A stretch of DNA of 60,987 nucleotides, counting the filler, from Sphacelaria rigidula (lineage: Eukaryota), in NCBI GenBank assembly GCA_964200075.2. It is 3 parts of 3 records of this genome, joined end to end, with 100 filler letters (N's around TTAATTAATTAA, not from the genome) between each part and the next. Parts side by side here need not be neighbours in the genome. Positions count along the whole stretch, not along the records: positions 1 to 20,263 come from CAXNAA020000549.1; 2 more parts are not named here. One strand, 5' to 3'. Made by a program: the position numbers and the translations under genes. The notes beneath the pieces were generated by a model that ran no database searches, had not been told where the DNA came from, and saw only the letters and a program-made list of their open reading frames with translations. Shown piece by piece: positions 2,459 through 40,626 of the stretch. Position 1 is the first letter of the stretch. Each line of letters opens with the position of its first letter.

Positions 2459-2871
2459 TGTAATATGGAAAGGCTCCGCACACCTTCCTAGATGAGTGTT
2501 TATCAATGTGCTGCAAGCTTGGTGAAGTGCACAAGGTGCAATGTGTTCGACAAGCTATGTGTTTCACACACACAGGTTCACGTGACTGTTGGTCCAAACA
2601 AAACAAAGGAGCTCGAAGGCTTGGTATCTTGTTATTCTCGCTTATTATTCTCTTGCTCGCCAAGCGTACTGTTCTCACCCAAGGTAAACAGTAGGTGCAG
2701 ATGGTCCAGCTCAGATAGTGATCGAGGGTGCAAGTAACACAACCTCTCTGATCTAGGCCCGAGAAGGCATTCCTTCTCCTCGGGGCTAGGGTACGCAAGT
2801 CTGCATGCCAACCTTCCCCGAAACTGTCTGAAGGAACAAATAACGCCCCTCTATCTTCCTTCCTCATGACA
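2459..2871 (-). repeat. 3' LTR (413 bp)
   Basis: Plus strand TGTAATA...CATGACA; collinear similarity to 15917-16466 (e.g. CTTATTATTC.CTTGCTCGCC.AGC..ACTGTTCTCACC.AAGGTAAA and GGAACAAATA.CGCC.CTCTATCTTCCTTCCT). Confidence 0.88.
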
Positions 2872-2882: not shown

Positions 2883-3470
2883 AGACGAACCTCTATTTGA
2901 GTTGCGATGAAATCTCAAGAGCAACTAAAATTGGGGCTTGTCTCACTCATCAAGTCATGCGGAGACAACGCGAAAAAAAAAGGGGGCAATGACCAGCCCG
3001 CGCCCGATTCTCCCACACCCCAAACGAGAAAAACTAAAGGTGCCTCAAAAAGCGCAATTTCGAGATTGCGGTTGACTGCGCAGTAGCACACAATGCTGCT
3101 GCGAGCTAGCGAACAGACGGGAAAAGTACACAATGCTGTGACGCGCTAGCTAGATAAAGAGCAAAGGAAAACCTCGCAAAGGGCACAGGGGCAATCTCAA
3201 GCAGGGAAACAAAAACTCAAGGACCCGAATAGGGTCGAGTGTCAGCCGGACAAAGTGGTGGCAGCGTAAAGGCCAATGGAAGGGGGCGAAGGGGATTCAA
3301 AGGAAGGCGTCGAAGGGGTCGATGAGGGCAGAGATGAGCCGTGATAGGAGAGCCATAGTAGGTGAAGCAGTGAAGAGAAGAGCGTACCTGAGTGGGGATA
3401 AGGGAAGTACCAGAACCAAACTGGGAGGGGAGAGAAAAATCGCGATAAAGGGAGTGGAAAGAGATAGGAC

Positions 3471-3719
3471 TCAAGATAGTGCATTGATGTCGTGTGTACG
3501 ATCGATATTGCGTTGAAGGCCTCGGCGTAGGCCGTGTGACATGGAGAGTTGTAGGCACCATGAGCCGCGGGGTGCGGAGGGGCTAGTCGTGTGTATGGGG
3601 CGAAGCTTAAGCTGAACGGACCCAGGGTCGTCGAGGAAACGCACGATGTACGTGTCAGCCGCGAGGGCATCGACGGAGTGGATCTGACCTAGCCACCAGA
3701 GGTAATCGCTGCCCTTATA
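3471..3719 (-). pseudogene. Integrase C-terminal extension: PWWP/Tudor-like (Royal family) domain, in frame after a single TGA
   Basis: Manual translation continuing the 3720..4490 frame: PKGAYS*YKGSDYLWWLGQIHSVDALAADTYIVRFLDDPGSVQLKLRPIHTTSPSAPRGSWCLQLSMSHGLRRGLQRNIDRTHDINALS*; 82 open codons ending at TGA 3471-3473. Confidence 0.6.
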
Positions 3720-4490
3720 TCATGAATAGGCACCTTTAGGGAGCGGTTGATGTTTTACGCGAATCTTTTCGTCCCATTGTTTGGTGGGTACGAGTTCGTA
3801 ACCATCGGCTACAAAATGTAGTCCTTTGTCGCGGTGGAGTTCGCGGGCTGCAGCACCGCGTCTCATGTTGCGATATCCCTTGTTGTCAGCGAGCTGTTGC
3901 TGTGGGGATTGCGTCCAATAAAGAAGGATAGCACGACGGTGCAGTTGAAGGTCGGACTCGCGTTCCCAAGACGCACGCCGAAGACCTTGCCAGTGTGTCT
4001 TGTACATGACAGCAATTTTGCCGCCAGGATCTCGAGTGATTTGGTGGCCGGAAATGTGGGACACGGCCAAGCGGAGAGGTTGTTCAGTCACGTCATCGGT
4101 GGTAACGTGGTACGGTGGAGATTTTGTTGAGTAGCTCTTGAGCACGTAATGAGTGAGACCTGCAGGCAGGTGTTGAGGCATGTCAGTAGTGTCATGCGGG
4201 TTCGTGCAAGGCTTGCAAAGATGCACAGAGACGCGAGATTCAAGATCATGTCCCTGGAGGTCACGAGGTAAATCGAGGTGGAGGAGTTTGTCGCCAACAG
4301 GCTTGCCATCTGGAGACGTTGGCGAGGGTCCTACTATGAGAATCTTGAACAGACCCGTCCAATTAAGGAACAATTTGGTCTTCAAGACTGTGGCATGGGC
4401 AGTGCGATCAGCGCCTTGACGGATGGTGAACAAACTGTTGTAGATCCAGACCCAATCGCCGATTTTCCAAGTAGGGCGTTTGTGCATCAA
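3720..4490 (-). pseudogene. Integrase C-terminus: GPY/F module plus chromodomain
   Basis: WKIGDWVWIYN...KLFLNWTGLFKIL (GPY/F-like) and VSHISGHQ...MYKTHWQGLRRASWERESDL...ILLYW (chromodomain Y-x3-W-x-G...WE pattern). Confidence 0.85.
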
Positions 4491-6443
4491 GTTGTAAAGG
4501 GCGGTATTGGATCTTTCAAGGCGTGAGGCATTGATAGCGTGTTATTCGCGCACCAAAGTGAAAGCCTTGCGCTGACGAGCCCTGGCGAGGTCGTGGTAGG
4601 ACAGCTGATCCTGTTCCAGACCTTGGTGATCATCGAAGGTATGTCTTTCGAAAACGGTGATGGGCACACGAGGGTAGCGTCCAAGATGCAGCTCGTTGGG
4701 CGAGAGGCCTGCAGCCGCATTGACCGAATTGTTGTAAGACAGCATGGCATGCGAAAGGTGAAGGTCCCAGTTATTTTGGCGGTCGTTTACGACCATTGAT
4801 AGCATTTGAGCCATGGTGTGGTTCACACGTTCAGTGCCACCGTTACCGTTAGGGTGGTAGGCGCTCGTGGCAATTTTACGAATGCCGAGGAGCTTGTACT
4901 AAGCATCAGAGAGTTCGGAGCAAAATTCCTGATCATTGTGGGAGAGGAGCCGTTTCGGGCAGCCATAGTGCTTAATGTAGTCATGGACGAGAATGTCCGC
5001 TGTGCCGGCAGCAGTGAAATCGCTAGCAGTAACAGCGTACATAGACGCGTGACGGCTGAAGCGGTCGGTGAAAAGCAGAATGTAGGTATTACCACGGTCA
5101 GTGGTGGTAAAGGGCCGAAGTAGTCAAACGATACGAAGTGACCAGGAGCGTTTGGAAGTTCCATGGAAATGACCGGCCATCGTATAGTCTGTCGAGAGGT
5201 TTTGCGAACCTGACATTTGAAACATCGTCGGATCCACAAGCGCGTGGATTCTTCCATGCCGATCCACCAATAAAAGCGTTCAAGGAGCGCTAAGGTGCGC
5301 GTGACGCCCAAGTGGCAGGACAAATCAGAGTGACAGCCCTTCATGACCCACGGACGCATCATGATAGGGACATAGATACGGATAGGGGCGTCATGACGCA
5401 TATGTGCCGGAGTGGCAGTTGTGACTGCGGCAGCCGTGCCCAAATGGGAGTTGGGTCGGCGAACCAGCAAATGGACGTCGTCGTCAGTCGCGAAGATAGT
5501 ACCTTTGCGTGCAAGCTCGAGCACTTCAGAGGCGGTGGGGGCGGGTAGAGTGTTCACGGGGGTCAGGATCTCAGTCGGGAAAGGGGTGGGGCAGTTAAGC
5601 CGTAAGTCCCGCATTGTCGCGCGACAAAGCGGTTCCTGTTGTTGGTCGCGAGCCCAATGGCGGTGAGAGTAGCTAGCGAGAAATTCTCGAAGTTGTCCTT
5701 CAGCCGGAGAGTCAACCAAACATGGTGGCTCAGGAAGGGGTGGCACAGGTGAGGAAGAAGGGGTGCCGACGTCAACATCTTGATCCGGAAGCGGATCTGA
5801 CGCATGCGTATCGCGAGTCAGAGGCGCAGGTGCAGGGAGATTCCCAGAAGGCGGCGTGGGGGGTAGCGCGAATTGGTGAACGTGATCGGCGCGTTGGGCG
5901 CACAAGGGGCGCGGACTTTGTCGGTACAACACTAGGCACGCGACCGGTTGTGGTAGGTGTTGTACGGTTCGTGGGGGCACGAGGCGGCGGCGGCGACGCA
6001 TTGCTAGAAGCGGCCGACGGCTGCGGTGGTATTACGGCACGCGAATAATTTGCACGAGATGCCGACCGAGAACGCTTTGTTGTCAGAGGTGAGGTGAACA
6101 GTTGGTAGTGGCGGCGCCGAGATGTTCGCGCGAGAGCCGAAAGTGCGGAAGTGGGCAAAATCAGCTGTGGGCACTAAGCCATCCAGAACTGCATCAGGGG
6201 GCAGAGGGCGGGGGCCCCCATGTGTAGACCTGTTTCAGGGCATTGCAGGTCAAGCGCGTGGATGGGCGTAGAAAGACGCCGAATGGGATAGACGCCTGGT
6301 TCATCAGATTCAGTCAAGTGGCGAGCGGGACTGAAACCTACCGCTGTAGGGGGCAGAGGCAATTGCGAAAGAAGGTCAGCATTGCCGTTGGTTTTGCCCG
6401 GACGGTGTTCAACAATGTACTGGTAAGCAGTCAAGAACTCCAG
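4491..6443 (-). pseudogene. End of RNase H, low-complexity linker, integrase HHCC zinc domain and DDE core (frameshifted)
   Basis: LEFLTAYQYIVEHRPGKTNGNADLLS; CHSDLSCHLGVTRT...FYWWIGM...CFKCQ (HHCC); FVSFDYFGPLP; NHTMAQML...WDLHL...YNNSVNAAAGLSPNELHLGR. Split across several frames. Confidence 0.9.
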
Positions 6444-9400
6444 TCACCATTGTACGCGGGGGTTATGTTCTCCAACCTTAGCGAGTTGTTCAAGAGCTCC
6501 GTGATCTGTATAGATGTGAAAAGGCACGTGGAACAAGTACTGTCGAAGCCTTTTTATAGTCCAAGTTATGACTCCGCCTTCGAGTTCGAGTGGACTCCAG
6601 CTTGCCTCGTTTGGGAGGGTTGCGCGGCTGATGTACAAAATAGGTCGGACACAGCCATCCTGTTGAGGCTGATTTAAAACGGCGCCGAATCCATCTGTGC
6701 TAGCATCGGTGTGTAGTTGGAAAAGACGTGAACCGTCTTGTACCGCGTCCCAATCCGGAAAACAAAGAACCGGTTTTTCGGTCAGTGTTTTGAGCAGTTC
6801 GCGGACGGTGGCTTCCATTTCTTCAGTGAAGACAAACGGGACGTTTTTCTTCAGTAAATCTGTGATGGGCCGGATCCGCTTGGACATGTTGGGCAAAAAT
6901 TTGCGATAATATGAAAGTCCACCCAACAGCGAGCGAAGCTGCGAAATAGTGGTGGGCATGGGCATATCAGTCATAGCCTTGACCTTGTTCGTGTCTGGGT
7001 GCAATCCAGCAGGAGAGATAGAGTGTCCCAAAAACCCCAATTCAGTGGCTCCGAGTCGAGCTTTGAATGGAGACAATTTCAAGTCGTGTGTACGCAAGCG
7101 CGAGAGAAATTCCCGTAGAGTGCGAACATGCGCGTCGGGGGAGGCATCAAAAGCGATAGCATCGTCTAGATACATGATAACATGCTCGAGACCGTCAGTA
7201 ACGCGTTGCATGAGGCGTTGAAAGCAGCCAGGCGCGGTGGCAGCGCCTTGTGGCATACGAAGCCATCCAAAAAGCCCTGAAGATGTACAGAACGCCGTCA
7301 AGGGAACTGTATCGGGGTGAATTGCATTTTGGAAAAATCCAGAGGTCAGATCGAAAGTGCTGAAAAGTTTTCCTTCGCCGAGAGAGCCGAAGACTTCGTC
7401 GATGCAAGGTATGGGGAGTATTCCCACGACAGTGACGCGGTTCAGCCGTTTGTAGTTCACGGTGATGTTGCCATCTTTTTTGGGGACGACCACGAGGGGT
7501 GAGGCCCATGGCGAAGACGAGTGTTGAATCAGACCAGCTCCTAAGTAGGCATCCAAAATAGCATTGACTTTTTTGGTGAGGAGGGGATTCGTTAGAAATG
7601 GTCGAGACGAGATTGGCGAAACGCCAGGTTGCAGTGTTATCTCGAATGGCAATGTTTTACAATGCCCGAGATCCGTCTTGGATCGGGAAAATCTGTCCTG
7701 ATATTCCAGGAGAACATCTTGTAGCTCTTGGATGACGGCGGGCTCCCAGCCCGGAACATGTAGGTCAAAATGGATATCACGCAAATGAGGTGGAAGTTGG
7801 TGCCACATTTGCAAGAAATGTTCTCGAGACTCGACCGATAAGCGTTGAAGCACTTCATCAGGAGGTTCAGCAGGGGGTCTATCGGATTCCACCGCAGAAA
7901 TCTGTGTCAGGGATGAGGCGGAGAGATTGAAGTATGGCTCATCGACGCAGTGAACAAAACCATCGGTCGGCGGCGTGAGATCAGGCGCCGGAGGGTCGGC
8001 AACACGGGATTCCCGAGGAATGTGCGTAAGAGGAGCCGCGGTGATGCCCAAGGCATCGCCAGGTTCCAAATTAGCATGGCCTGTAAGAGGCAGGAGTTGT
8101 TCGCCGTCCGAGACAAAATGCTCAGTGCCAGCGGGCGCACCGACTTTAGGCAGTAATTCCGCAAGGTAGTGGCCGGTGAGGGTAGGCATACCGTTGCGGC
8201 GAACAAGCAAAACTTCCAAGAGTTGAGGCTCGTCGGAAAGGGTGACGCCAGAACTGCCAGTGTACCGAAGATGGTAAGCCGCTCCGGTAGCCTGCTCATT
8301 CGTTTTGTAGGCTAAGGCACCATTGAGGGTACCAAAATATTCCAGTTGGAGTTCTCCACGAGGCGCCGACTGAGGCGATAATGGTGGGAGGGTGCGGTAC
8401 GTACGTTGGTCGAACCGCATGAAGCTATCTCTGCCAAGAAGGAGAGCATGATGCATGGTGCTATCAGGGACGATGCAAGCCCAGACTGCGAGACTAGCCG
8501 AACGTGTGTCATTGTGAAAAAATTGTACACTAAGACGAACAGATGTTCGTGTCGTCAAGGGTGTTTTGGAGTCGCCGAACCCGCCCCAAATGCGAGGTTG
8601 GGTGGTGATTTCGCAGACATCGGAAGCAGCGCTAGTCTGTTTCATATGATTCCACATGGATTCTTGGGTGAATGTCTGTGGACTACCGCTGTCTAACAGC
8701 GAGACGCACTTGGCGTGCGCGGTGGCGTAAGGGCCGCAGTGTAATGCTACTGGGGTAGTGAAGGTGGCAGGATCAACGGACACTTTACCACCGACAAGGT
8801 CAGGGTCATGTTCAGATAACGTGAATTGGTCAGGATTAGTCGGACTGACCGTGAAAACGGATGGCGGGTGATTCGCGGGGGGTTCGAAGGTATCGATAGA
8901 CATCGTGGGGGTCTGATCCGATCGTGAAGGGCAGCGTGAATCAGGATTTTGATCAATCTCGTAGATGACTGGCTTGGAAGTACAAGGATCATTGTTGAAG
9001 AGAGATTGCTGCAAAGTCCGATAGGGGTCATCGGTGGAGGATGCGGTACCGTCTGAAAGGTCCGATTTGGATTCCTCTTGGATGCCTGGCAATGTCATCG
9101 AGCTCAAAGTCGCCGCTTTTTGGGGAGAATGAGGTCGGAATTTTCCGCTGACGGGAGGGGGGCGTGTCAATGCTCGCGCTTCCGTGGGGGCATGACGACG
9201 AGGCTTCCTCTCGTGCCGTGACAAATGGCTGGGAACTTCCAAGACTTCTCGGGAAACTGCAACTACGTCCAGTTGAGGTGATGTTGTCAGCATCGGGGTA
9301 TGCTCAGCCGAAACTTGTGGACTGTCCACTGGCAAGCTCGGTACGAAGGGCACTGCTAAACGTGAAAGGAGACGAGTGTTGTCCACTGTATGTCGGGGTA

Positions 9401-9632
9401 GTTTCGCGGAAGAAGAGTGGCGCGAAAAACGACTACGATCAGGCTGGGTAGGAGTCGAAGGGTTTGAAGTGGTCAGTTTCGAACCATCAACATCAGAACC
9501 AGTTGAAGGAAATCTGCTACAACCGGTGCGTGCGGTCGTTGAGGGAAGCCTGTGCCTCAAGGGTCCGCGGTCGGTCTTCCCACACCTCAGATTTATACTT
9601 AGTTCCGGAGGACCAATTCTGGAGCCAAGCAT
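6444..9632 (-). CDS. pol: Pol: aspartic protease, reverse transcriptase and RNase H (1062-aa open segment of the polyprotein)
   Basis: LLDSGS protease motif; SPWASPLVVVPKKDG, FSTFDLTSGFFQ, RMPQG, YLDD (RT); LHTDAS, LELE, IYTDH (RNase H). Ends at a TGA that replaces the conserved W of 'R..RW'. Confidence 0.96.
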   Translation of the reverse strand: MLGSRIGPPELSINLRCGKTDRGPLRHRLPSTTARTGCSRFPSTGSDVDGSKLTTSNPSTPTQPDRSRFSRHSSSAKLPRHTVDNTRLLSRLAVPFVPSLPVDSPQVSAEHTPMLTTSPQLDVVAVSREVLEVPSHLSRHERKPRRHAPTEARALTRPPPVSGKFRPHSPQKAATLSSMTLPGIQEESKSDLSDGTASSTDDPYRTLQQSLFNNDPCTSKPVIYEIDQNPDSRCPSRSDQTPTMSIDTFEPPANHPPSVFTVSPTNPDQFTLSEHDPDLVGGKVSVDPATFTTPVALHCGPYATAHAKCVSLLDSGSPQTFTQESMWNHMKQTSAASDVCEITTQPRIWGGFGDSKTPLTTRTSVRLSVQFFHNDTRSASLAVWACIVPDSTMHHALLLGRDSFMRFDQRTYRTLPPLSPQSAPRGELQLEYFGTLNGALAYKTNEQATGAAYHLRYTGSSGVTLSDEPQLLEVLLVRRNGMPTLTGHYLAELLPKVGAPAGTEHFVSDGEQLLPLTGHANLEPGDALGITAAPLTHIPRESRVADPPAPDLTPPTDGFVHCVDEPYFNLSASSLTQISAVESDRPPAEPPDEVLQRLSVESREHFLQMWHQLPPHLRDIHFDLHVPGWEPAVIQELQDVLLEYQDRFSRSKTDLGHCKTLPFEITLQPGVSPISSRPFLTNPLLTKKVNAILDAYLGAGLIQHSSSPWASPLVVVPKKDGNITVNYKRLNRVTVVGILPIPCIDEVFGSLGEGKLFSTFDLTSGFFQNAIHPDTVPLTAFCTSSGLFGWLRMPQGAATAPGCFQRLMQRVTDGLEHVIMYLDDAIAFDASPDAHVRTLREFLSRLRTHDLKLSPFKARLGATELGFLGHSISPAGLHPDTNKVKAMTDMPMPTTISQLRSLLGGLSYYRKFLPNMSKRIRPITDLLKKNVPFVFTEEMEATVRELLKTLTEKPVLCFPDWDAVQDGSRLFQLHTDASTDGFGAVLNQPQQDGCVRPILYISRATLPNEASWSPLELEGGVITWTIKRLRQYLFHVPFHIYTDHGALEQLAKVGEHNPRVQW

Positions 9633-9641
9633 AGAGCTGGG

Positions 9642-11284
9642 TTATGAGTCAACACAACGGTTACGCTGTGTGTGTGAAGATAAAGACGGGGATCGAGAAG
9701 AACGGCCGTCATTAGATCTCCTACATAGTGTTGGGTGAGAACGTTTCGTCACCCGAGTGTGTGTTGGATGAGTCTTCGATGTTGCTATCGGCGGCCCCGT
9801 TCGCTGGTGATGACCATGCGAAAACTGAGAAGGGCGAAAAGAACTATCTCTATGACGACTACCTGGGACGGTGTTGGTGGTGTGGCGACGGTCGCGATTT
9901 GAGCGAGAGTCGCTATGATGTTGGTAAGGCTGGCGATGGTGGCGAGAAGGTGGACGATACTCGCGCATGGGTTTTTGCCATCGGCGCCACGCCTGCCTGT
10001 TGCTCTGAAGTTCAGGGTTCATGAACGAAAATTATTGATGCAAGGTTCAGGGCAGTCACGCATACTGTGGCCAGTACCATTGCAGTTGATGCATGTGTTA
10101 GCATGGCGACGGAAAGCATCCTTGCGAGCCGAAGGCGAAAGCAAGGGGGTCCACAAACGTGCGTCATCGGTGATGAAAGCGGTTGTGGAAACGACGTAAA
10201 CGTAATCAAAAGTGTCTGCTGAAAAAGGCCAAGCGTCGAAGCTTGCACGGAACGGGCCTTTTTTGCTACGAACAGACATGACCGATCCACCGACAGAGTT
10301 GCGTGTTCAAGTATTACTTGACAAAATCTGAGTGCGTCCACGAGACCCGGAGGTACTCGTGGATGCGGCACGCAGGGTCTGCGAAGACCCAGAAGAACAA
10401 TGTGTGCCACGGATGGCAGGCGTCAAATTGTGTTCTTGATCTACGAACGCAGTCCACATCGCGTCTATGGAGGCGTAAGGCACCTTTTTGTGCGTCAAAG
10501 CGCCCGGAAACAAAGACGGCATCAGCGTCGGAAATTGCTGAGCGATACTATTGCGAACGTATGTTTGACACCTAGCATCACTAGGGCTATTCTGTCGTCC
10601 GGTACCAGTCACACTTGACACCAAAAGCTTGAATTCGCGTAGGTAGTCAGCAAAGGGCACGTCTGTTGCCACGGCAAAGGAACTGAAGCGCTTGATGGCG
10701 CCTGCCTGATCAGACTTATCAAAATAACCTATGAAACGCCTTTCCAAATTGCTGAAAAATAGCGGCGCTGTTTGCCCTCCGGCACAATCTTGATCCATGG
10801 CGGCGAAGAAGGAGTCGAGAATCTGCGTCAAAGAAGCAACAACGTCAGGGGATCGATGGCTGATTGAGCGGTGCAAAGCCTTATGCAGCGGTGTTTGCCA
10901 TCCATCAATTCAGTCAGAGTCTTCGAAACGTTGTTGACCACTTGCATCGGCCAATTCAAGGATGTTGCGCATCGTTCGACGCATTGAGGGAGTGAGAGCT
11001 GACGTAAACTGACCAGAGTCTTTATTGTCTGCAGCAGGCATGGTTTTGATATGCCAAAGTTTCTTTACATCCATCTGTAAGTACTCTCGCTTGATGGCAG
11101 CGACACGAGACGCTTCTCTACGAGTATCGGAAGCCATTTTATCTGCGGCAGCTTGTAGTTTGGCTGCGGCGGCGGCAGCTAGTGACCGAGCCGAGGTTGA
11201 AGACAATGGGCGAGCCGAGTTGTCACTATCACTATCCGTGAGACCTAAAAGGCGAGCAGACGCAGCTGCTAAAGTAGGCGTTAC
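9642..11284 (-). pseudogene. gag: Gag (capsid-like region plus CCHC zinc knuckle), interrupted
   Basis: ORFs 10910..11206, 10307..10876 and 10019..10279 share one frame separated by stops. CINCNGTGHSMRDC is CX2CX4HX4C. ORF 9642..10022 is in the pol frame. Confidence 0.8.
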
Positions 11285-13951
11285 TTACCTGACGGCCGGT
11301 GAGGGCCGCATGGATCGCGTCGAGGTGTATTGACGATGTCTAGTAGTCGATGAACTGGAAGACTGATGACCAGACCATTTATGGCTGCCCCTGGTTGTAC
11401 GGCGACCGTTGTTGGTGTTGCGGTGGGCCCCGTGACCACGGCGAGGTGCGGCGCCGGGTTGGTCGTCGTCAGAGTCGCCATCACCACGACGGTGGCGAGG
11501 GGGGTGGGGTTTGATCCAGACCCCATCATCGTCGGGCGGCAGCGTGTTATGGGCTGCCCGCATAGCGGCGAAGAGGGCGGCGACGGCGGTCTCATTAGCA
11601 TGGCGACTGTCCTCGGTACCAATCGTTAGATAGAGCACGATTCGTTCGATGGTGAGAGCTCCTGGTCGTTGCGCGGGAGCTGTCCTCCTTGCTGAAGGAA
11701 GGGGACGATCACACTATTGATGGGCAGAGTTAGTGAGCGCCAAGCTTGCTCAGAGGCGCTGAGAACGTTGTTGCGCGTATACTCCCCTGAACGTTGGCGT
11801 AGCATCCAAGGAAGCCAACAGCGTTCGCTGCCCTGAAGGTGCAGCCCAGGTGTGGGGGCAGGGGGCGCCGAAGCCCGAAGGACCTGCGGAGTGCGCGTAG
11901 GCGAGGCCGTAGAAGCAGCAGCGGCAGCGTATGGGCGCGAGGACCCACGGTTCTCCGCAGAGCCTGGATGTGCAGGGGTAGGCGCAGGCGCTGACGCGGT
12001 CGCCGTTGTCCTCAGAAGAGGAAGGTGTCACTCTTGTTCCAAGGATTGAAGAGAGCCGAGGTGGCGGTGGTCGTGGCCGCGGTGTATTGGCGCAGGCGGT
12101 CTTCGTCGCGCCGGATGGTGTCGCGCATTTTGTGAGAGGCGGCGAGACGCTCGTTCAGGGTTTCCCGGGCCGCCTGTCGGCGGCTGGTCGCCGAGTCAAC
12201 AGCCTGACATTGGCGCGTCAGGCGTGCGGAGAGGCTGTCAAGAAGGAGACTATTGACAGCGTCATCCGCCGTCTGGCGGGGTGAGGGTGGTTCAGAGGTC
12301 ATGTCCTGTTGCATAGCTTCGTAATCCGCTAAGATTTGCTCCTGATCGGAGCGGGGACCACGCAACCAGAATCGGGGTAGGAGGCCCGGTGGACAATACT
12401 CGATGCCCAACAGGGGGCGGTCGTCCGTAGGAGACGTGGGTGCAGGCGCCGAAGCCGGATCATTGGCGGCAGCATCCTGCGGGGAAGTGTCATATTCCGC
12501 AGGGGTGGCCGTCACAGGGGCGTCAACCGTAGCCACCGTGTCGGCAGCTGCAGTTGCTGCCGCGCTGGGGGCGGGGGGCATGACGCGGACACTCTCAGCG
12601 TCTGTATCGACATCCGCGGCAGCAGTATGGGAGGCGGCTACGGCAGGAGTGGTGGTCGAAGGAGCAGGGGCATTGGCCATAGTTGCAGCTGAGCGTAGGT
12701 ATCGGCGAAGATCTACAATTTTTCGTTCGACAGCACGCACGGTGGCAGCGTCAGGATGGGGCGGAAGGGCACGGTGAGTGCTGCGTCCGCTGCGCAAAGG
12801 TGCGTGAATATTAGTCAACGAAGCATCAACGGGCGGTCGTGAGCTTACATGGGTCCGATCGACAGATTTAGGCCGTGATGATCCCGTGGTTGAAGATAGC
12901 CCCGAAAACAGAGCACGTACATCATGTACATGAGTAGTGGTATCACCATGGTGAACAATGTCATCATTATCCAAATCGAAATCAGAAGGAACAACTGAGG
13001 TTGAACGTTCGTCATCATGGGCTGCAGTCGCTGATACAGAGGCCTGATGATTCACATTACTGTCAAAGTGAACATGATCTGAGGACGTTGAATGTCGAAC
13101 GGCCGTGTGAAACGCGGCCGCAAGCGCTTGTGAAAGGGCAGTTGTCGCTGGACCGTTAGAAATGACAGCCGGCGATGAACGAAGCAAGTGCTCAAGAGCC
13201 GTTACTAAAGGCAAGTGCCCTGTGGAAGGCCCTCCGGAGCGGCCAAGACGCGAGGAGGATGTTCGGCGCGGGGGCTGGTGAACAGAAGTGTCCTCCCGAT
13301 ACATGTCGTATCGTCGCGGGCGCTGTAAGACACCGTAACCCTTGTGCGACGTATCGAAACGTCAGAAGGCATGGACGGATGCCGTTCATCAACACCGCGA
13401 GCGCGGGGTGAGTCAATAACCGCGGTAGAAGCCTGAAGTGGTTTGTGTTTCACAACAGTGGCAGCGCGTGGCGACTCGTTAGACATGTTGGAACCCCGAG
13501 ACGGAGCACGTTAAACAACAGAGCGAGCGCGTAGCGACTCGTCGATCGTGTTGGAACTCCGAGACGGTGTGCGGTTCACAACAGAGCGAGCGCGTAGCGA
13601 CTCGTCGATCATGTTGGAAGTCTTGAACAGTGAAGGGTCCGCGACAGAGCGAGCGCGTAGCGACTCGTTGATCATGTCGGCAGTCTTGGGCGGTGTGCGA
13701 TTCGCAACAGAGCGAGCGCGGAGCGACTCGTCGATCATGTTGGAAGTCTTGGACAAGTGACGGTCGTGGTCACCAGTAGCAGCCAAGTCTTGAGACGTGT
13801 AGTCGTCAAAGTGGAGGACCGAAGCTCTGTCGGATTTCACTTCTTCGTGTACAAGGGAAGTAAGAGTGAAGGGTTTTGAAGGAAGTGATGAAAGCAAACG
13901 CTGACGGCGTAAAGATTTGTAAGTAGGCAGGGCCGAGGGGAGAATTATTTT
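11285..13951 (-). pseudogene. Long extra coding region upstream of gag (repeat region, disordered segment, coiled coil), interrupted
   Basis: 13511..13897 and 13205..13486 share a frame; 12012..13304 is 430 aa with the coiled-coil-like ARLTRQCQAVDSATSRRQAARETLNERLAASHKMRDTIRRDEDRLRQY; 11750..12031 and 11285..11638 are in the gag frame. Confidence 0.6.
13392..13760 (-). repeat. Coding tandem repeat, 63-bp unit, about 6 copies (21 aa, core SNMIDESLRARSV)
   Basis: The ACAGAGCGAGCGCG-like anchor recurs at 13392, 13455, 13518, 13581, 13644 and 13707 (exact 63-nt period). Confidence 0.92.
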
Positions 13952-15205
13952 CTGCGGTTACGCAATATTAAAATGAAGAGGTAGGAATGGACGCTAGACA
14001 CTAGAGTACAATAGTTCTGGTATAATAATAGCAGGTAGTGTAGACTCGGCAGGAGATTGTAAGTATCGAAAAAAACAATTAAGCTGTAAAGACTACAGGA
14101 TTTTATAAACGGAGGTACACCAAAGTAGAGCAGACTGCTGTGATAATAACAATCAGCGTTATCTCGACAATTCCAAGTGCCGAAAAGGCAGACAGCAGAG
14201 CAGAAAGGTGGAGATGATTAAACGCCGAAAAGAGAGGAACTGCGGCGGAAATAAGACACCTGTAGAGGAAACTGTGTGTGGGGGAGTAGGGGGGGGGCGC
14301 ACTGCACTGAAGGTGTACCAAAGGTGTGAATTGTCGCAAGGAACAAACTTACAGATAAACCCAACAGTTGTCGCAAGAGAGGTTTGGGGCAAGAGCAAAA
14401 GCTGACAATGAGGCGACTGTGAAAGGAGACAGACACCCGGACAGATGTCCGACAGGCGCACTGTGCACGTTAAATATGACAGGGGTACTTAGTGGCCAGG
14501 CACACGCTGGACAAGGGTGTTTCAGTGGTGCAAGTACAATACCGCACTCAGGAGGTGTAGAAAAACACCACTCGAGACCGCGGAAGTAGACACCAATACT
14601 AGTGTAGAACACGTTGCTAAAAGGGAGGCGATGTGCAAATATATGTGAAATTCGATACAGAAAGATAATCAAAACGTGCGGCAGCGGGGGTGCGAAACAG
14701 GGAACTCAAGTGCAAGAGTCCAAGAGACGACAGCTGTAGCAGCCGACTGAAACACTAATCGCTGGTGCAGATCAGGCGCCAAGCTGAAAAGACTACAGGG
14801 GGATACAAATTTTCGAACAAAAAATCAGGACATCGTACAGCGATCCAGGTAGTGGAGCACCAGAGAGGAAAAAGTGGAACACGCAGTGCAAGGCCAAAAG
14901 GGAAAAGAAACTGTGTATGTAGTATCCACGCGAAAGATTAAAAACATTATCCACCAGTTCACGCGCAAAAGATGAAAAGCGCGTCGTGGAATCACGACCC
15001 AAAGGTGAAAGGTTGACCACGTAGTGCTCACCCAGCGAAAAATGGAGAAGCGGGGCTGGGGTGTGATAGAAACCTGACGGGAGGTGCGATGAGAGACGCA
15101 CAGCACCGAATTTGTCAATTGTGTTGGTGCAGGTTGTCGCGCGGGAGAACAAATAGTGTGCACTACAGTGCTCTGCACGGTGGAGCGGCAGGTGTTACTA
15201 CCACA

Positions 15206-15916: not shown

Positions 15917-16466
15917 TGTAATAGGGATATGTGTGAACAGACTCCACACACCTTCCTCGATAGATCGATGTGAAATAAGCTATGCACGAGGTGCGATGAT
16001 GTGTCCGGAAGCTATATGATTCACAGGTAGGCTCACGTGACCGATGGTCAACTGTAGCAAGCAGGCAGAAGAAGCTCAAAGGCTTTATGTCTCGTAACTC
16101 TCACTTATTATTCCCTTGCTCGCCTAGCACACTGTTCTCACCAAAGGTAAAGAGTAGAAGCAGATGTCCGGCTCGAAGGGCAGCTCAAGAGTGGGCGAGT
16201 GTGCATGGAACACGACGTATCCGACCTCGACTCGAGAAGGCGTTTTGCCTCCTCGGGACCAGGGCATGTCAGCCTGCACACTGAGCTTCCCCAGCTAGGG
16301 TACACCAGTCTGTACACCGACCTTCCCCAGAACGTAGTCTGTACATCAACCTTCCCCAGAACTATGGGAGCATTCCCATGGATGGGTCGAGTGATCTGTG
16401 AGCCAACCTGCCCCAAAATTGTCTGTGGGAACAAATAGCGCCTCTCTATCTTCCTTCCTTATGATA
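15917..16466 (-). repeat. 5' LTR (550 bp) with expanded ~29-bp U3 repeats
   Basis: Plus strand TGTAATA...TATGATA; homologous to 2459-2871; about 4 copies of a TCTGTACA..ACCTTCCCCAG-like unit at roughly 16270-16420. Confidence 0.85.
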
Positions 16467-23692: not shown

Positions 23693-24936
23693 TCAAAAAA
23701 TGTTTATAACGATGACAACGCTCGGGTACATACGAGCACTCGCATCACCCATATCCTTGTACAGTTTCAGCCAAGAATACGTAAACTTGAGGCTCGCGTC
23801 GCACTTTTGTGTGACCCCGGTGGTCAAACTGATACAACAGCCTCAAAACACACATGTCATGAGTTCGAATCCCGGCATGACCACTTCTATTTTTTGTTTT
23901 CAACGGGCATGACTACATGCATGATGCCATGCCCGAATCATCAGTTGCGGTACCCGCGTCCTACGATGCAGCCGTGCACGCGCTGTAGGAGCTGCACGGC
24001 GCTTTTGCTTCGACCGGTTCTCACGTCAAGGATGGCCAACAACCTCTTATCGCTGAGTGTGGTCATATCTTTTGTAGAAGCATGGAACGAGGCGGAGACA
24101 GGTGCGATTTCGCTCGGCAAACATGTCTTCTGTGATTTCGGAAGAACACTGTACAATCGTTTCAACACGACTGCAGCTTTCATCGCTCTGTTGAACCTGC
24201 CTTTCGGGAGTGATCGTGCAGGTTTTCTGCTGTCAGACAGCGACATCGAGTTGTGTTGTAGAGGTTGCAGCATTCCTCGACTGCTTTCGCCCGCACATAT
24301 CGGGTGTTCGCGTACCTGTGCGGGTGGAATTTACTATCGTAATTCCTCCGCATTTTGTGAAACGCAAGTCTCCAGACACGCTATCGCACGAAGAACTGGG
24401 ACGTACTCGGTGCTCAATGCAGTACAATAACATCATCGCCAAAAGTGCACCAATCGAGCAGCGGCGATGCCCATGTTACCAGGTTAGTCTGCAGTTCACA
24501 GCGATATGCTCAGGTCGTGCTGATTCGGGAAACTTGAAGAGTTGTGGTGACGACAAGGGATGTTGGGTTTATGGCCGGCCCAGCTCGTACACACTTACTG
24601 GCAATAAAGATGCTGCAGCTGCCGCTGCTGCTTCTTCTTCTCGTGCAGAAGGTGGTCCGCGTTTCGACGTGCGACAATACCCATCCACCTCGCGCGTTAC
24701 TTTCTGCTCCCCGCTTGAAATCGATTATGGTCTGTTTGCGTGTTGTTACCCTTATATTGTATCAGTATACTGTAGCATTTCAGCACAAGTACATTTTACT
24801 TGTTTTCCCCTGTATTGGACGCTGGCTATATTTTTTCAACGCCATCACCAGCAGTAGCCACGCGTGCGAGACACACCCGAGGATAAGTGATTGTTTGCGA
24901 GGATACATGATTTTCCCGCTTTTACTCATTACTTCA

Positions 24937-27567: not shown

Positions 27568-27774
27568 ACTTGAACAAACGGCCGGAGTATAAAAAAGTCT
27601 GTAATTACTTGATTGAAGTACAGAATCGTGTTTTGGGGAGTGGTTTTCACGGTAAAAGATCCAGCCGATTCAGTTTTTCGAGTTGAGCAACAAAAATCTG
27701 TGCACAATTCCTTGGGATACCACATAACCCTAAGATGTCAAAATTTTGGTGTCGGGGCATTATGTATCGGTTTC

Positions 27775-28272
27775 CTGGGGTCTTTGTTCTGGGACCCCCG
27801 GAAGCCGGTAAAGAACGGAGAAACCTTTGAAATCTTGCCAGGAATATAATTTTTCCATTAGGAGCATCAATACCTACGAAACTTCCGAGTTTGATGATGA
27901 TCTGAGCTTTTCTCCAACAGATAGAAGGGAAATCGTCACGAGGCTCCGTGGATCTTTCGTACTCATGACTGGAAATTAGGCGACGTCAAAACTCCACATT
28001 ACCGAATCATCACGGTTTTGGGCGAAATTCGACCCCGTTGGAACCGTTTTCAAATCTGTTTCTCCCTTTAGATTCCCAAGCTGATGACGGTTACTACGAT
28101 TTGAACCATATAGAGATTCGGTGGAAATTAGGCTTGAAATTCGTGTTTTCAATTTCGAAGGCGCTGATTGGTCGGGACATATTTTTGTCCATAGCGCCAA
28201 CGCTATAGCCTTGAGCAAAAATCGGCTATGTCACCCTTTTCGTCTGTTTATTGCGATCAGTATGATACCACA
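27775..28272 (+). repeat. ~500-bp dispersed repeat; inverted copy at about 54310-54822
   Basis: Collinear blocks such as GATGATCTGAGCTTTTCT, AAGGGAAATCGTCACGAGGCTCC, AATTCGACCCCGTTGGA, GGCGCTGATTGGTCG, GCTATAGCCTTGA and GTCACCCTTTTCGTCTGTT match the reverse complement of 54310-54822. Confidence 0.9.
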
Positions 28273-39200: not shown

Positions 39201-39669
39201 TCAGACCGGAGCAGACGGGGTGGGGCCCGAACGTACATGATCCTCCACGAACTTCGTGCACTACCGATCCGGCACGTTTTCACAATTTAAGTCGCTTGCA
39301 ATCTATGTTGTTACATAACTCGCAAGCGATGCAGCTTTCTAAACGTCCGTAAACCGCCCGTGAGGCGAGCTCTTGATGGTGGAAGTACCCGCCCCTCTTC
39401 CCGTGATGATCTCCAGCCTTCGTCTCAGACAATGAAACCTTCGGAATATGACAGTAACTACCGTAAGTTACTCTGTGATCGCACGGGGGTGCGATCGTTT
39501 ATTTAATGTTTTCGAGCTTCTTCTTTTCCGCACAGGGGCGCGTTCTCACGCCCCCTGTGCGAACACCACACCCCCTGTGCGAAAATCGGATCAAATCATT
39601 TCGAGGGTCGGAAAAATAATGATTAGTCTGAAAATTACTTAGTTTTAGTATAATGAGTAGACTCGCGAC

Positions 39670-39860
39670 GAATCAATTCCTAGGCTTTATTTCAGAATTG
39701 CGAACCAGGTACCCGCAGCCCAGACTCGTGGAAAGGCACAAAAGTTGCGTGGATACCCCTTGGACCAGCGATAATTTTTTTTCTCCCTTTCGGGCAATCA
39801 GGTCGAAGAAATCGTGAATTTGGGGATTTTAAGTCGTGATGATTTGTTCTATCCGTGAAT
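39670..39860 (+). repeat. ~190-bp dispersed repeat; direct copy at about 47372-47570
   Basis: Shared CCAGGTA..CGCAGCCCAGAC.CGTGGAA, CGTGGATACCCCTTG.ACCAGCG, TTCTCCCTTT.GGGCAATCAGG..GAAGAAATCGTG. Confidence 0.88.
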
Positions 39861-40260: not shown

Positions 40261-40626
40261 ACTGCTTAGTTTCAAAGTGTCTCGACCATTTCTCGACGCT
40301 CTTGGCTCTGGGGGCAGTATGGCGCAGTCTCAGGCGGTAGTTCCCCAAACTACGGATGTGTGTTACTCTAGGCTTCGTGGCTCTCTCCCATGATGGAGAT
40401 GTTGACGACCTTGAAGCCATCTTGCAGCAGTACAGACAATACAGTCCGGTGATTGCCTGCCTGTGCGGCCCAACTGTGCGTCGTAGTTCCACCGCATTCT
40501 GTGAAGCGAAACGTCTCCAAGCACGCTATCACGCGATCTTTTTGGTATTACCCAATACTCGATGCAGTTCAATAACATCATTATCAAAACTGCGCCAACG
40601 GAGCAGCGGCGGTACTGCATGTCACC

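What the first reader, a model, noticed from the sequence alone, without database searches (positions are those of the whole stretch)
3471..4070. Gypsy integrase with two tandem chromatin-reader domains: chromodomain plus a hidden PWWP/Tudor-like module
Seen: after the chromodomain (MYKTHWQG...SWERESDL) and a ~55-aa linker, the frame reads LPKGAYS*YKGSDYLWWLGQIHSVDALAADTYIVRFLDDPGSVQL and stays open for 82 codons past the TGA at 3720-3722. Restoring TGA to TGG gives G-x3-W-x-K-x4-LWW-x2-(Q)I...Y-x-V-x-F-x-D. Known: this resembles the PWWP/Tudor beta-barrel consensus (GdlVWaK..g.pWWPa.I...y.V.F.d); chromoviruses typically end integrase with a chromodomain that steers insertion; PWWP domains (e.g. 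LEDGF, which tethers HIV integrase) read H3K36 methylation. Inference: this lineage may carry its own second histone reader, a dual-mark targeting system I do not recognise as described. It would be notable in brown algae, whose repressive chromatin is reported to be atypical.
Basis: partly seen in the sequence, partly recalled or inferred. Interest (0 to 1): 0.85.

Follow-up and report, generated by a model that had tools for sequence, protein, structure and literature searches.

The report
Gypsy integrase chromodomain plus Tudor tail
A dead copy of a brown-alga-type Gypsy retrotransposon shows that its family ends the integrase with two small chromatin-reader-like domains in a row, a chromodomain and a Tudor-like barrel, which may steer where the element inserts.

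Summary
On the minus strand, 3474-4100 encodes a chromodomain, a conserved helical connector and a small beta-barrel, interrupted by TGA at 3720-3722. The open frame alone is not significant (shuffle P=0.08), but homology settles it. 25 of the 150 best relatives align straight across the stop. 59 of 73 aligned relatives have Trp there. In four sequencing runs almost all contig depth reads a Trp codon at that place. pN is far below pS in three intact DNA copies.

AlphaFold2 models are confident (pLDDT 88 and 92). The first domain matches chromodomains (Chp1, Z 7.6, rmsd 1.5 Å). The second matches Tudor domains. PHF19/PHF1 Tudor is the best hit both by fold and by sequence profile (E=0.007). PWWP is not favoured.

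Both methyl-lysine cages are incomplete, so histone reading is inferred, not shown.

A 2025 Ectocarpus paper reports chromodomain-bearing and Tudor-bearing Gypsy lineages separately. The window copy itself is dead.

Verdict: a real, conserved feature and a new variant of a known kind.

The parts
6279..8879 (-). pol: protease-like region, reverse transcriptase and RNase H of a Ty3/Gypsy element
   Evidence: Pfam RVT_1 7.7e-19, RT_RNaseH 1.6e-22 and RT_RNaseH_2 2.2e-18 in ORF 6444-9641. tblastn of full-length relatives P0287 and P0308 aligns here at 50-51% identity, frame -2.
5105..5683 (-). integrase N-terminal HHCC zinc-binding region, in a different frame (-3) from the flanking pol parts
   Evidence: Pfam Integrase_H2C2 3.4e-14. 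tblastn shows the frame change -2 / -3 / -2.
4542..5114 (-). integrase catalytic core, with in-frame stops at 4899-4901 and 4542-4544
   Evidence: ORF list. tblastn of P0287 residues 1285-1834 runs 5114-3501 through these stops. At 4544 nearly all contig depth reads G, not A, so this stop is private to the window copy.
   Evidence: The motif pattern G.W.W[VI]Y.. ... W.G.FK[IV]L is visible in P0001 residues 25-72 and in 48 stored relatives. Calling it GPY/F-type is from recall; Pfam SH3_Tf2-1 hit only 1 of 76 relatives, at E 0.18.
4194..4217 (-). conserved Cys/His motif (C-K-P-C-x-N-P-H) between integrase and chromodomain
   Evidence: Seen in the window and in the relatives printed. Its function is unknown.
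3912..4076 (-). chromodomain (three strands plus a C-terminal helix) with cage positions L-W-L
   Evidence: AF2 model of the window's own sequence: strands 13-23, 29-37, 44-47, helix 48-63. VIA: Chp1 Z 7.6, rmsd 1.5, 53 aligned of 55; dHP1 Z 7.0, rmsd 1.5; Polycomb Z 6.5, rmsd 1.6, 31% id. Pfam Chromo in 14 of 76 relatives, best 5e-6. Cage columns, with the Swi6 alignment.
3741..3911 (-). conserved helical connector (long helix with an R-x-G-A-A-x-R-E-L-x-R motif, short strand, second helix)
   Evidence: Model helices 74-91 and 106-114, strand 101-103, block pLDDT 90-96. Columns A84 73 of 80 and R86 73 of 79. Mean pairwise identity 0.46, against 0.49 for the chromodomain.
3591..3740 (-). Tudor-like beta-barrel (motifs FWYK, LWWLGKI, YIVRFLDDPGP in relatives)
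   Evidence: AF2 models. Foldseek: PHF1/PHF19 Tudor prob 0.99-1.0, rmsd about 2.1 Å, 26-30% id over 46-47 columns. VIA: RDM15 Tudor Z 5.4, rmsd 2.0, 57 aligned of 58; Spindlin-4 Z 5.8. Profile against PDB sequences: PHF19 Tudor E 0.0069.
3720..3722 (-). in-frame TGA inside the first strand of the barrel, private to this copy
   Evidence: for the codon. W in 59 of 73 relatives at this column. Contigs of four runs read a Trp codon here in nearly all depth.
3474..3590 (-). conserved extra strand (G-S-W-C-L-Q-x-H) and variable C-terminal tail of Pol
   Evidence: Columns S180 54 of 60, W181 52 of 58, C182 55 of 59. Strand 140-145 in the P0030 model. Mean pairwise identity 0.56 for model residues 171-186.
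3471..3473 (-). natural stop codon of Pol (TGA)
   Evidence: Relatives end within about 10-15 residues of the same alignment position.
2471..2869 (.). weak candidate LTR, paired with 15939-16464 (low confidence)
   Evidence: Self-blastn: 2471-2819 against 15939-16292 at 69% identity, and 2807-2869 against 16402-16464 at 87%. No PBS or PPT was checked.

Best explanation
The window holds a decayed Ty3/Gypsy LTR retrotransposon on the minus strand. In its family, Pol does not end with the integrase. Behind the integrase's own SH3-like region comes a conserved unit of about 200 residues: a chromodomain, a helical connector, a Tudor-like five-stranded barrel with one extra strand, and a short tail.

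Shown:
- The unit is real coding sequence.
- It is under constraint similar to the rest of the integrase.
- It is present at the C-terminus of full-length Pol proteins of 1,670-2,075 residues.
- It is predicted with high confidence as one compact body.
- In this copy it is broken by a private stop in the first barrel strand. This is one of at least three in-frame stops and two frame changes in pol, so this copy makes no functional integrase.

Inferred: in active copies the two-barrel tail tethers the integrase-cDNA complex to nucleosomes in a particular chromatin state and so biases insertion sites. Chromodomains of chromoviruses do this in cis, and LEDGF's PWWP domain does it for HIV in trans. 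The Tudor-like barrel, whose nearest relatives by sequence and fold are the H3K36me3-reading Tudor domains of PHF19/PHF1, is the more likely histone-tail contact. The chromodomain has lost two of its three cage aromatics and probably plays a supporting or different binding role. Which mark is read, if any, is unknown.
For: Coding and conservation:
- 978 relatives at E<=1e-3; 25 of the 150 listed cross the stop to residue 300 or beyond.
- 138 relatives of the module alone.
- 15 longer proteins carry it, 10 of them with a precomputed rve integrase domain. These include P0287 (1,848 aa) and P0286 (1,670 aa) with RT, RNase H and integrase ahead of the module, and P0308 (2,075 aa) with an additional N-terminal NADAR domain.
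- W at the stop column in 59 of 73 relatives.
- 57 of 81 aligned relatives span the barrel, 49 of them with W.
- A Trp codon fills nearly all contig depth at 3720 in 4 of 4 runs laid.
- Three metagenome loci hold uninterrupted frames from the integrase core through the module.
- Barrel pN is 0.19-0.32 against pS 0.61-0.83. dN/dS is 0.08-0.23 where computable, like the chromodomain (0.10-0.20) and the integrase C-terminus (0.06-0.18).

Fold:
- AF2 of the natural relative P0030: pLDDT 88.3, pTM 0.81.
- AF2 of the window's own 209 residues with X at the stop: pLDDT 91.9, pTM 0.84.
- Chromodomain matches at Z 6.5-7.6 with rmsd 1.5-1.6 Å.
- Tudor matches by Foldseek and VIA.

Sequence:
- The module-only profile finds PHF19 Tudor at E 0.0069-0.0096 (3 sequences), then PHF1 Tudor at E 0.33-0.57 (6 sequences). 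Together these are 9 of the 13 hits.
- Sub-threshold Pfam hits among 76 relatives: Agenet 10, Tudor_2 4, SH3_VIII-1_N 24.
- ESM-Atlas neighbours: Spin/Ssty 0.89 and PTM/DIR17 Tudor 0.86, leads only.

Context from papers (passages read):
- Chromodomains fused to Gypsy integrases are linked to targeted insertion (PMC11541908; bioRxiv 10.1101/2021.11.30.470311).
- Brown algae lack H3K27 methylation and largely lack detectable H3K9 methylation (PMC13076208).
Against: - No binding was tested.
- The chromodomain cage reads L-W-L where canonical chromodomains have three aromatics: L in 36 of 57, W in 57 of 66, L in 55 of 67. Which columns are the cage positions is from recall.
- Aligned to PHF19, only 2 of the 4 recalled cage positions are aromatic in the main subfamily (second W of LWWLG, F of VRFLDD), plus the Asp. 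The other two positions are a small residue and Pro.
- In the distant GWQL subfamily (P0029, P0097, P0114) those two become Q and M, L or F. A canonical methyl-lysine cage is therefore not conserved across the family.
- No Pfam Tudor, Agenet or PWWP model reaches its cut-off in any of 76 relatives.
- Foldseek E-values are 0.014-0.1, none at or below 0.001.
- VIA Z for the barrel is 4.3-5.8, a range the tool warns can reflect only a common small-barrel arrangement.
- I could not inspect model coordinates, so cage geometry and the contact between the two domains are untested.
- Synonymous sites are saturated in the dN/dS test.
- Database proteins are gene predictions and so lack stops by construction.
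Confidence: 0.72

Rival explanations
1. The second barrel is a structural or nucleic-acid-binding SH3-like domain, in effect an extra integrase C-terminal domain, or a docking site for a host chromatin protein. It would not be a reader of a histone modification. Targeting, if any, would work through DNA or a protein partner.
For: The cage is incomplete in the main subfamily and lost in the GWQL subfamily. The most frequent weak Pfam hit is an SH3 family (SH3_VIII-1_N, 24 of 76). ASAP1 SH3 domains follow the Tudor hits in the PDB profile searches. KOW/Spt5, Sm-like and TraI small barrels appear at similar Z. The connector helix carries nearly invariant arginines.
Against: The best sequence and fold matches are consistently histone-reading Tudor domains: PHF19, PHF1, Spindlin, RDM15. 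The nearly invariant Asp after the third strand aligns with the PHF19 Asp. hhalign finds no relation to the integrase's own SH3-like region (probability 0.8%).
Confidence: 0.2
2. The barrel is a PWWP domain in the strict sense.
For: The pattern F-W-Y-K ... L-W-W-L-G-K-I ... Y-I-V-R-F resembles the recalled PWWP pattern. One PWWP chain (6kco) appears at Z 4.2 and Z 4.9.
Against: No PWWP entry is among the listed Foldseek rows. No Pfam PWWP hit at E<=1 in 76 relatives. Tudor chains rank higher and more often. The profile hits PHF19/PHF1 Tudor by sequence. The prolines of the P-W-W-P motif are absent.
Confidence: 0.05
3. The 82 codons after the TGA are non-coding 3' sequence that stays open by chance.
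For: The open frame alone is not significant (P=0.08). All three minus frames are open here. Pfam is silent on the window copy.
Against: Homology across the stop at E down to 1e-100, a conserved C-terminus, Trp at the stop column, pN well below pS, and a confident fold.
Confidence: 0.01

Closest known systems
NADAR- and chromodomain-bearing Gypsy lineage of Ectocarpus (example Gypsy-12_Ec32; PMC12477816, passages read)
   Same: [quoted passage not shown] A relative of the window element (P0308, about 50-53% identical over pol) has an N-terminal NADAR domain (Pfam 3.6e-49) as well as the chromodomain and barrel.
   Different: The passages I read name only a chromodomain for this lineage, with no second barrel. 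The window copy shows no NADAR. I could not compare sequences because the consensus sequences and Supplementary Material 7 Fig. S1 were not available, so identity with that lineage is an inference.
[quoted passage not shown]
   Same: A Gypsy Pol of a brown alga that ends in a Tudor domain, with the proposed role of reading chromatin.
   Different: It is described as a lineage separate from the three chromodomain lineages, and no chromodomain is mentioned for it. Here both domains sit in one protein. Whether the two Tudor domains are homologous is untested.
Chromoviruses (Ty3/Gypsy with an integrase-chromodomain fusion, e.g. MAGGY)
   Same: A reader domain fused in cis to the integrase C-terminus. 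The MAGGY chromodomain targets H3K9me regions (passage in 10.1101/2021.11.30.470311).
   Different: Chromoviruses carry a single reader. [quoted passage not shown] The cage here is L-W-L; the resemblance to plant 'group II' chromodomains is from recall.
Tudor domains of Polycomb-like proteins PHF19 / PHF1 / MTF2
   Same: The best sequence-profile hit (E 0.007) and among the best fold hits: 26-30% identity over 46-47 columns, rmsd about 2.1 Å, TM 0.58-0.66 normalised to the target.
   Different: Those are host proteins whose entry titles show H3K36me3 binding. Here 2 of 4 cage positions differ. The barrel has an extra C-terminal strand and an N-terminal helix, somewhat like extended Tudor domains (Z about 5 over 77-85 residues).
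LEDGF/p75 PWWP tether of HIV integrase (recalled)
   Same: A Royal-family barrel links an integrase to marked nucleosomes.
   Different: LEDGF is a host factor acting in trans, and its domain is a PWWP. Here the barrel is encoded in cis and is Tudor-like.

Membership tests
Tudor domain (Royal superfamily) | Small SH3-like antiparallel beta-barrel of about 55-60 residues | tested here: met
   AF2 pLDDT 88-92. RDM15 Tudor Z 5.4, rmsd 2.0, 57 aligned of 58. PHF19 Z 4.3-4.9, rmsd 2.3-2.4, 55 aligned of 57. Foldseek probability 0.97-1.0 for PHF1, PHF19, PHF20 and Spindlin Tudors.
Tudor domain (Royal superfamily) | Significant match to a curated Tudor-clan sequence model or to a solved Tudor sequence | tested here: inconclusive
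   Pfam: 0 of 76 relatives reach a cut-off. Sub-threshold hits are Agenet 10 and Tudor_2 4. Profile against PDB sequences: PHF19 Tudor E 0.0069-0.0096 and PHF1 E 0.33-0.57.
Tudor domain (Royal superfamily) | Aromatic cage of about four residues for methyl-lysine or methyl-arginine | tested here: inconclusive
   In the PHF19 alignment, 2 of 4 recalled cage positions are aromatic (W in 54 of 67, F in 57 of 67) and the Asp is kept (59 of 67). The other two are a small residue and Pro. The GWQL subfamily has Q and M/L/F instead. No coordinates were available to check geometry.
Tudor domain (Royal superfamily) | Binding of methylated histone or protein tails | not testable with these tools
   Needs peptide arrays, ITC or a co-structure.
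PWWP domain | P-W-W-P-type motif at the start of strand 2 | tested here: not met
   The family motif is L-W-W-L-G. Both Trp are present (59 of 66 and 54 of 67) but neither Pro.
PWWP domain | Match to PWWP models or structures | tested here: inconclusive
   No Pfam PWWP among the 15 families hit at E<=1 by 76 relatives. One PWWP chain (6kco) at Z 4.2 and 4.9.
Chromodomain | Three-stranded sheet packed against a C-terminal helix | tested here: met
   Strands 13-23, 29-37, 44-47 and helix 48-63. Chp1 Z 7.6, rmsd 1.5, 53 aligned of 55. dHP1 Z 7.0, rmsd 1.5. Polycomb Z 6.5, rmsd 1.6.
Chromodomain | Match to Pfam PF00385 | tested here: inconclusive
   Window copy: no hit at E<=1. Relatives: 14 of 76 at E<=1. 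The best, 5e-6 (26.8 bits, P0159), is the only one I saw above the 25.1-bit cut-off.
Chromodomain | Three conserved cage aromatics (stated in PMC11541908; the positions are recalled) | tested here: not met
   L-W-L in the window and in most relatives: L in 36 of 57, W in 57 of 66, L in 55 of 67.
Ty3/Gypsy (Metaviridae) LTR retrotransposon | pol order RT - RNase H - integrase | tested here: met
   Pfam domains and their order in the window and in P0287, P0286 and P0308. tblastn colinearity.
Ty3/Gypsy (Metaviridae) LTR retrotransposon | Flanking LTRs with PBS and PPT | tested here: inconclusive
   Only a weak direct repeat (69-87% identity) at 2471-2869 and 15939-16464. PBS and PPT were not examined.
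Chromovirus clade | Phylogenetic placement of RT/IN within the chromoviruses | not tested
   No tree was built here. PMC12477816 says brown-algal chromodomain Gypsy lineages fall outside the chromoviruses.

The most novel reading that the evidence does not exclude
A widespread brown-algal Gypsy lineage encodes its own two-barrel nucleosome tether. In it a cage-degenerate chromodomain is rigidly coupled to a Polycomb-like-type Tudor barrel. This would let the integrase read a mark that exists in brown-algal chromatin (for example H3K36me3, H3K79me2 or H4K20me3) in a group that lacks H3K27 methylation and mostly lacks H3K9 methylation. It would be a cis-encoded counterpart of the LEDGF-HIV tether, and the first tandem-reader integrase.
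Probability: 0.25. Interest if true: 0.8.

Novelty: new variant of a known kind. Interest (0 to 1): 0.6.

Why it matters
Reader domains fused to integrases are the clearest natural examples of transposons choosing their landing sites by chromatin state. Brown algae have an unusual chromatin toolkit: no H3K27 methylation, little detectable H3K9 methylation, and H3K79me2 and H4K20me3 as repression-linked marks (PMC13076208).

A family with hundreds of copies carries a chromodomain lacking its usual cage together with a Tudor-like barrel. That gives a directly testable handle on which marks matter for transposon targeting in this lineage.

It also suggests that the 'chromodomain' Gypsy lineages already catalogued in Ectocarpus may hold an overlooked second reader. 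The tail is small (about 200 residues), predicted with high confidence, and could be expressed for peptide-array work.

Tried and rejected
- No whole genome is held for the window.
- The scan's earlier findings gave nothing by place, sequence or words.
- Pfam on the window's own pieces of the tail: no family at E<=1.
- phmmer of the single window sequence against PDB sequences: only a chance-level designed protein, E 0.74.
- Open-frame statistics do not support coding on their own.
- Cluster look-ups for 18 relatives returned one organism name (Sphacelaria rigidula) and two 'hypothetical protein' labels.
- The look-up of sequencing runs: no RNA holder listed, so nothing can be said about expression.
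- Locus search with alignment A2 was rejected because it lacked a conserved stretch. I repeated it with the single protein P0285. Only 3 of the 80 loci kept were family members; the other 77 matched the query only in part (25-46% identity) and were left out.
- Internal duplication as the origin of the barrel: hhalign of the chromodomain against the barrel gave probability 0.1%, and the integrase SH3-like region against the barrel gave 0.8%. There is no support for either.
- Foldseek against predicted viral structures gave only small-barrel phage proteins, no E<=0.001 and no tandem match.
- No single solved chain covered both domains as a unit.
- NADAR was not found in the window element.
- dN/dS is only a rough figure because pS is 0.61-0.89, at or beyond saturation.
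- I could not obtain model coordinates, so there is no cage geometry.
- Literature searches for a tandem chromodomain-Tudor integrase found only PMC12477816 and general papers.
Full report
**What is in the sequence.** The finding lies on the minus strand. A chromodomain-like stretch comes first, then ...LPKGAYS, then TGA at 3720-3722. Another 82 open codons follow, up to a second TGA at 3471-3473.

The surroundings are a Ty3/Gypsy pol. Pfam finds RVT_1, RT_RNaseH and Integrase_H2C2 in the upstream frames. Full-length relatives align colinearly from 8879 to 3501 at about 50-54% identity. That alignment changes frame twice (-2, -3, -2). It also runs through in-frame stops at 4899-4901, 4542-4544 and 3720-3722. 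This copy is therefore dead.

The only candidate LTRs are a weak direct repeat at 2471-2869 and 15939-16464 (69-87% identity).

**Is the extension more than chance?** The open frame alone is not. 8.2% of 20,000 shuffles of 3471-3719 stay open, and all three minus frames are open in this stretch. Pfam sees nothing in the window's tail, not even the chromodomain.

Homology decides the question.
- phmmer of the 357-residue read-through (P0001) against 1.84 billion representatives found 978 proteins at E<=1e-3 and 66 at E<=1e-30. 25 of the 150 listed align across residue 274 (the stop) to residue 300 or beyond, the best over 1-349 at E 9e-100.
- In an 82-sequence alignment that I assembled from the rows, chosen for coverage, the stop column holds W in 59 of 73 relatives.
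- 57 of 81 relatives span the barrel, 49 of them with W.
- P0152, 88% identical to the window copy, is uninterrupted and has W there.
- I laid 4 of the 20 runs listed (Logan contigs, likeness >= 85). At + strand 3720 the contigs read C instead of T, which is a Trp codon on the minus strand. By depth this is 2838.9 of 2910.5, 16.5 of 16.5, 15824 of 15885.6 and 4506 of 4532.9.
- The stop at 4542-4544 is likewise private to this copy.
- 877-1231 contig pieces were laid in three of the runs and 78 in the fourth, so the family is highly repeated.

**Constraint.** A scan of metagenome contigs with P0285 kept 80 loci. Only L001-L003 matched 542 or more of its 575 residues. The other 77 matched the query only in part (25-46% identity) and were left out. 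The three loci have uninterrupted frames from the integrase core through the module.

Nei-Gojobori counts among these three and the window copy give the following:
- barrel: pN 0.19-0.32 against pS 0.61-0.83;
- barrel dN/dS 0.08-0.23 where computable;
- chromodomain dN/dS 0.10-0.20;
- integrase C-terminus dN/dS 0.06-0.18.

Synonymous sites are saturated, so these ratios are rough, but the direction is clear.

Mean pairwise protein identity is 0.49 in the barrel, 0.46 in the connector, 0.56 in the extra strand and 0.49 in the chromodomain.

**Where the module sits.** A search restricted to longer proteins found 15, of which 10 carry a precomputed rve domain. P0287 (1,848 aa) and P0286 (1,670 aa) read RT - RNase H - zinc finger - rve, then the tail at the very C-terminus. 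P0308 (2,075 aa) adds an N-terminal NADAR domain (Pfam 3.6e-49).

I saw the module only behind integrases. One exception is P0095, where a WSC/TIMP-like N-terminus is joined to it. That looks like a chimeric gene model.

Two relatives carry organism names, and both are brown algae: Sphacelaria rigidula and Pylaiella littoralis, in a more distant subfamily.

**Fold.** I ran AlphaFold2 twice.
- The natural relative P0030, with a 76-sequence alignment, gave pLDDT 88.3 and pTM 0.81.
- The window's own 209 residues (3474-4100, X at the stop), with an 82-sequence alignment, gave pLDDT 91.9 and pTM 0.84.

Residues 13-63 of the window model form three strands and a helix. VIA-align matches them to chromodomains: Chp1 Z 7.6 (rmsd 1.5, 53 aligned of 55), dHP1 Z 7.0 (rmsd 1.5) and Polycomb Z 6.5 (rmsd 1.6, 31% identity).

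The so-called linker is structured. It has a helix at 74-91 with nearly invariant Ala and Arg, a short strand and a second helix.

The C-terminal part is a small barrel with one extra strand.
- Foldseek's best rows for it are Spindlin and the Tudor domains of PHF1, PHF19, MTF2, PHF20 and PHF20L1. Probability is 0.94-1.0, rmsd about 2 Å over 43-49 columns for most rows, and TM 0.38-0.67 normalised to the single-domain Tudor targets. E-values are 0.014-0.1, none at or below 0.001.
- VIA-align against 48,161 chains gives Spindlin-4 Z 5.8, RDM15 Tudor Z 5.4 (rmsd 2.0, 57 aligned of 58), several extended Tudor domains at Z about 5 over 77-92 residues, PHF19 Z 4.3-4.9 and one PWWP chain at Z 4.2-4.9.
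- The tool warns that Z below 8 can mean only a common arrangement, so fold alone is suggestive rather than conclusive.

**Sequence-level support.**
- A profile of 29 short, module-only relatives (A5, picked by me for length) finds PHF19 Tudor at E 0.0069-0.0096 (3 sequences) and PHF1 Tudor at 0.33-0.57 (6 sequences), then ASAP1 SH3 at about 1.2 (4 sequences). That is all 13 hits.
- The longer profile A3 also found the Swi6 (0.079) and MPP8 (0.2) chromodomains.
- Among 76 relatives scanned singly against Pfam, the weak hits at E<=1 are SH3_VIII-1_N 24, Chromo 14 (best 5e-6), Agenet 10 and Tudor_2 4. None of the barrel hits reaches a cut-off, and no PWWP family is listed.
- ESM-Atlas neighbours (Spin/Ssty 0.89, PTM/DIR17 Tudor 0.86) are leads only.

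The same family, Polycomb-like Tudor, tops both the sequence search and the fold search. I therefore read the barrel as a divergent Tudor-clan domain and not a PWWP.

**Cages.** A passage in PMC11541908 states that chromodomains bind methyl-lysine through three aromatic residues. Using the Swi6 alignment and my recollection of which columns these are, the family has L, W, L at them: L in 36 of 57, W in 57 of 66 and L in 55 of 67.

For the barrel I used the PHF19 alignment and the recalled PHF19 cage.
- The second Trp of LWWLG (54 of 67), the Phe of VRF (57 of 67) and the following Asp (59 of 67) are kept.
- The other two positions are a small residue and Pro.
- In the distant GWQL subfamily the first two become Q and M, L or F.
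- The Trp lost to the stop in the window copy lies in strand 1 and, in this alignment, is not a cage residue.

I had no coordinates to check geometry. Histone-mark reading is therefore plausible but unproven, and may differ between subfamilies.

**Origin.** hhalign finds no relation between the barrel and the chromodomain (probability 0.1%). It also finds none between the barrel and the integrase's own SH3-like region (0.8%). Internal duplication has no support.

**Literature.**
- PMC12477816 (passages read) describes four Ectocarpus Gypsy lineages. Three have putative C-terminal chromodomains, and one of those also carries an N-terminal NADAR domain (Gypsy-12_Ec32). [quoted passage not shown]
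- The NADAR-bearing relative P0308 suggests that the present family belongs with, or near, the NADAR and chromodomain lineage. In that case the second barrel went unmentioned in the main text.
- Searches for a tandem arrangement returned nothing else.
- PMC13076208 (passages) reports no H3K27 methylation and mostly undetected H3K9 methylation in brown algae. It links H3K36me3 to active chromatin and H3K79me2 and H4K20me3 to repressed chromatin.

**Verdict.** The integrase tail is a chromodomain followed by a Tudor-like barrel. It is conserved and constrained across a large brown-algal Gypsy family, and it is broken in this copy by a private stop. The functional reading, a bivalent chromatin tether that steers integration, is inference by analogy with chromoviruses and with LEDGF. 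It is tempered by two incomplete cages. I rate it a new variant of a known kind, of moderate to good interest, and directly testable.

Noticed in passing
P0308 residues 27-176 (relative of the window element; not in the window): A full-length relative carries an N-terminal NADAR domain (Pfam PF08719, E 3.6e-49) ahead of protease/RT. This matches the NADAR-bearing Gypsy lineage described for Ectocarpus. The window copy shows no NADAR by tblastn or Pfam.
   Followed up: partly
Together they could form a zinc site (C2-CH). This was not tested.
   Followed up: no
window 13374-13763: Tandemly repeated segment (75-81% identity between units in self-blastn). It encodes a repeated peptide in the minus-strand ORF 13511-13957, upstream of the gag-like region.
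   Followed up: no
window 27756-28270 and 54313-54841: A pair of inverted segments of about 530 bp, 81% identical, probably two copies of another repeat family. Further repeat pairs lie at 24337-24480 / 40481-40626 and 39606-39859 / 47320-47570.
   Followed up: no
window 10310-10909 (-): Weak Retrotrans_gag hint (E 0.21) upstream of pol. The long low-complexity ORF 12012-13361 (-) has no family. At roughly 13 kb, the interval between the candidate LTRs is long for a Gypsy element and may hold extra or nested sequence.
   Followed up: partly
P0095 (373 aa, database protein): A gene model joins a signal-peptide/WSC/TIMP-like N-terminus to the connector and barrel of this transposon family. It is probably a chimeric prediction across a transposon fragment.
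   Followed up: no
window 3400-4600 compared with run contigs: Differences between the window copy and the family contigs are mostly transitions. In run X1 the counts are A>G 33, G>A 28, T>C 15 and C>T 8, against 1-8 for each transversion type.
   Followed up: no
whole window: The window holds 185 N and is 50.9% G+C.
   Followed up: no
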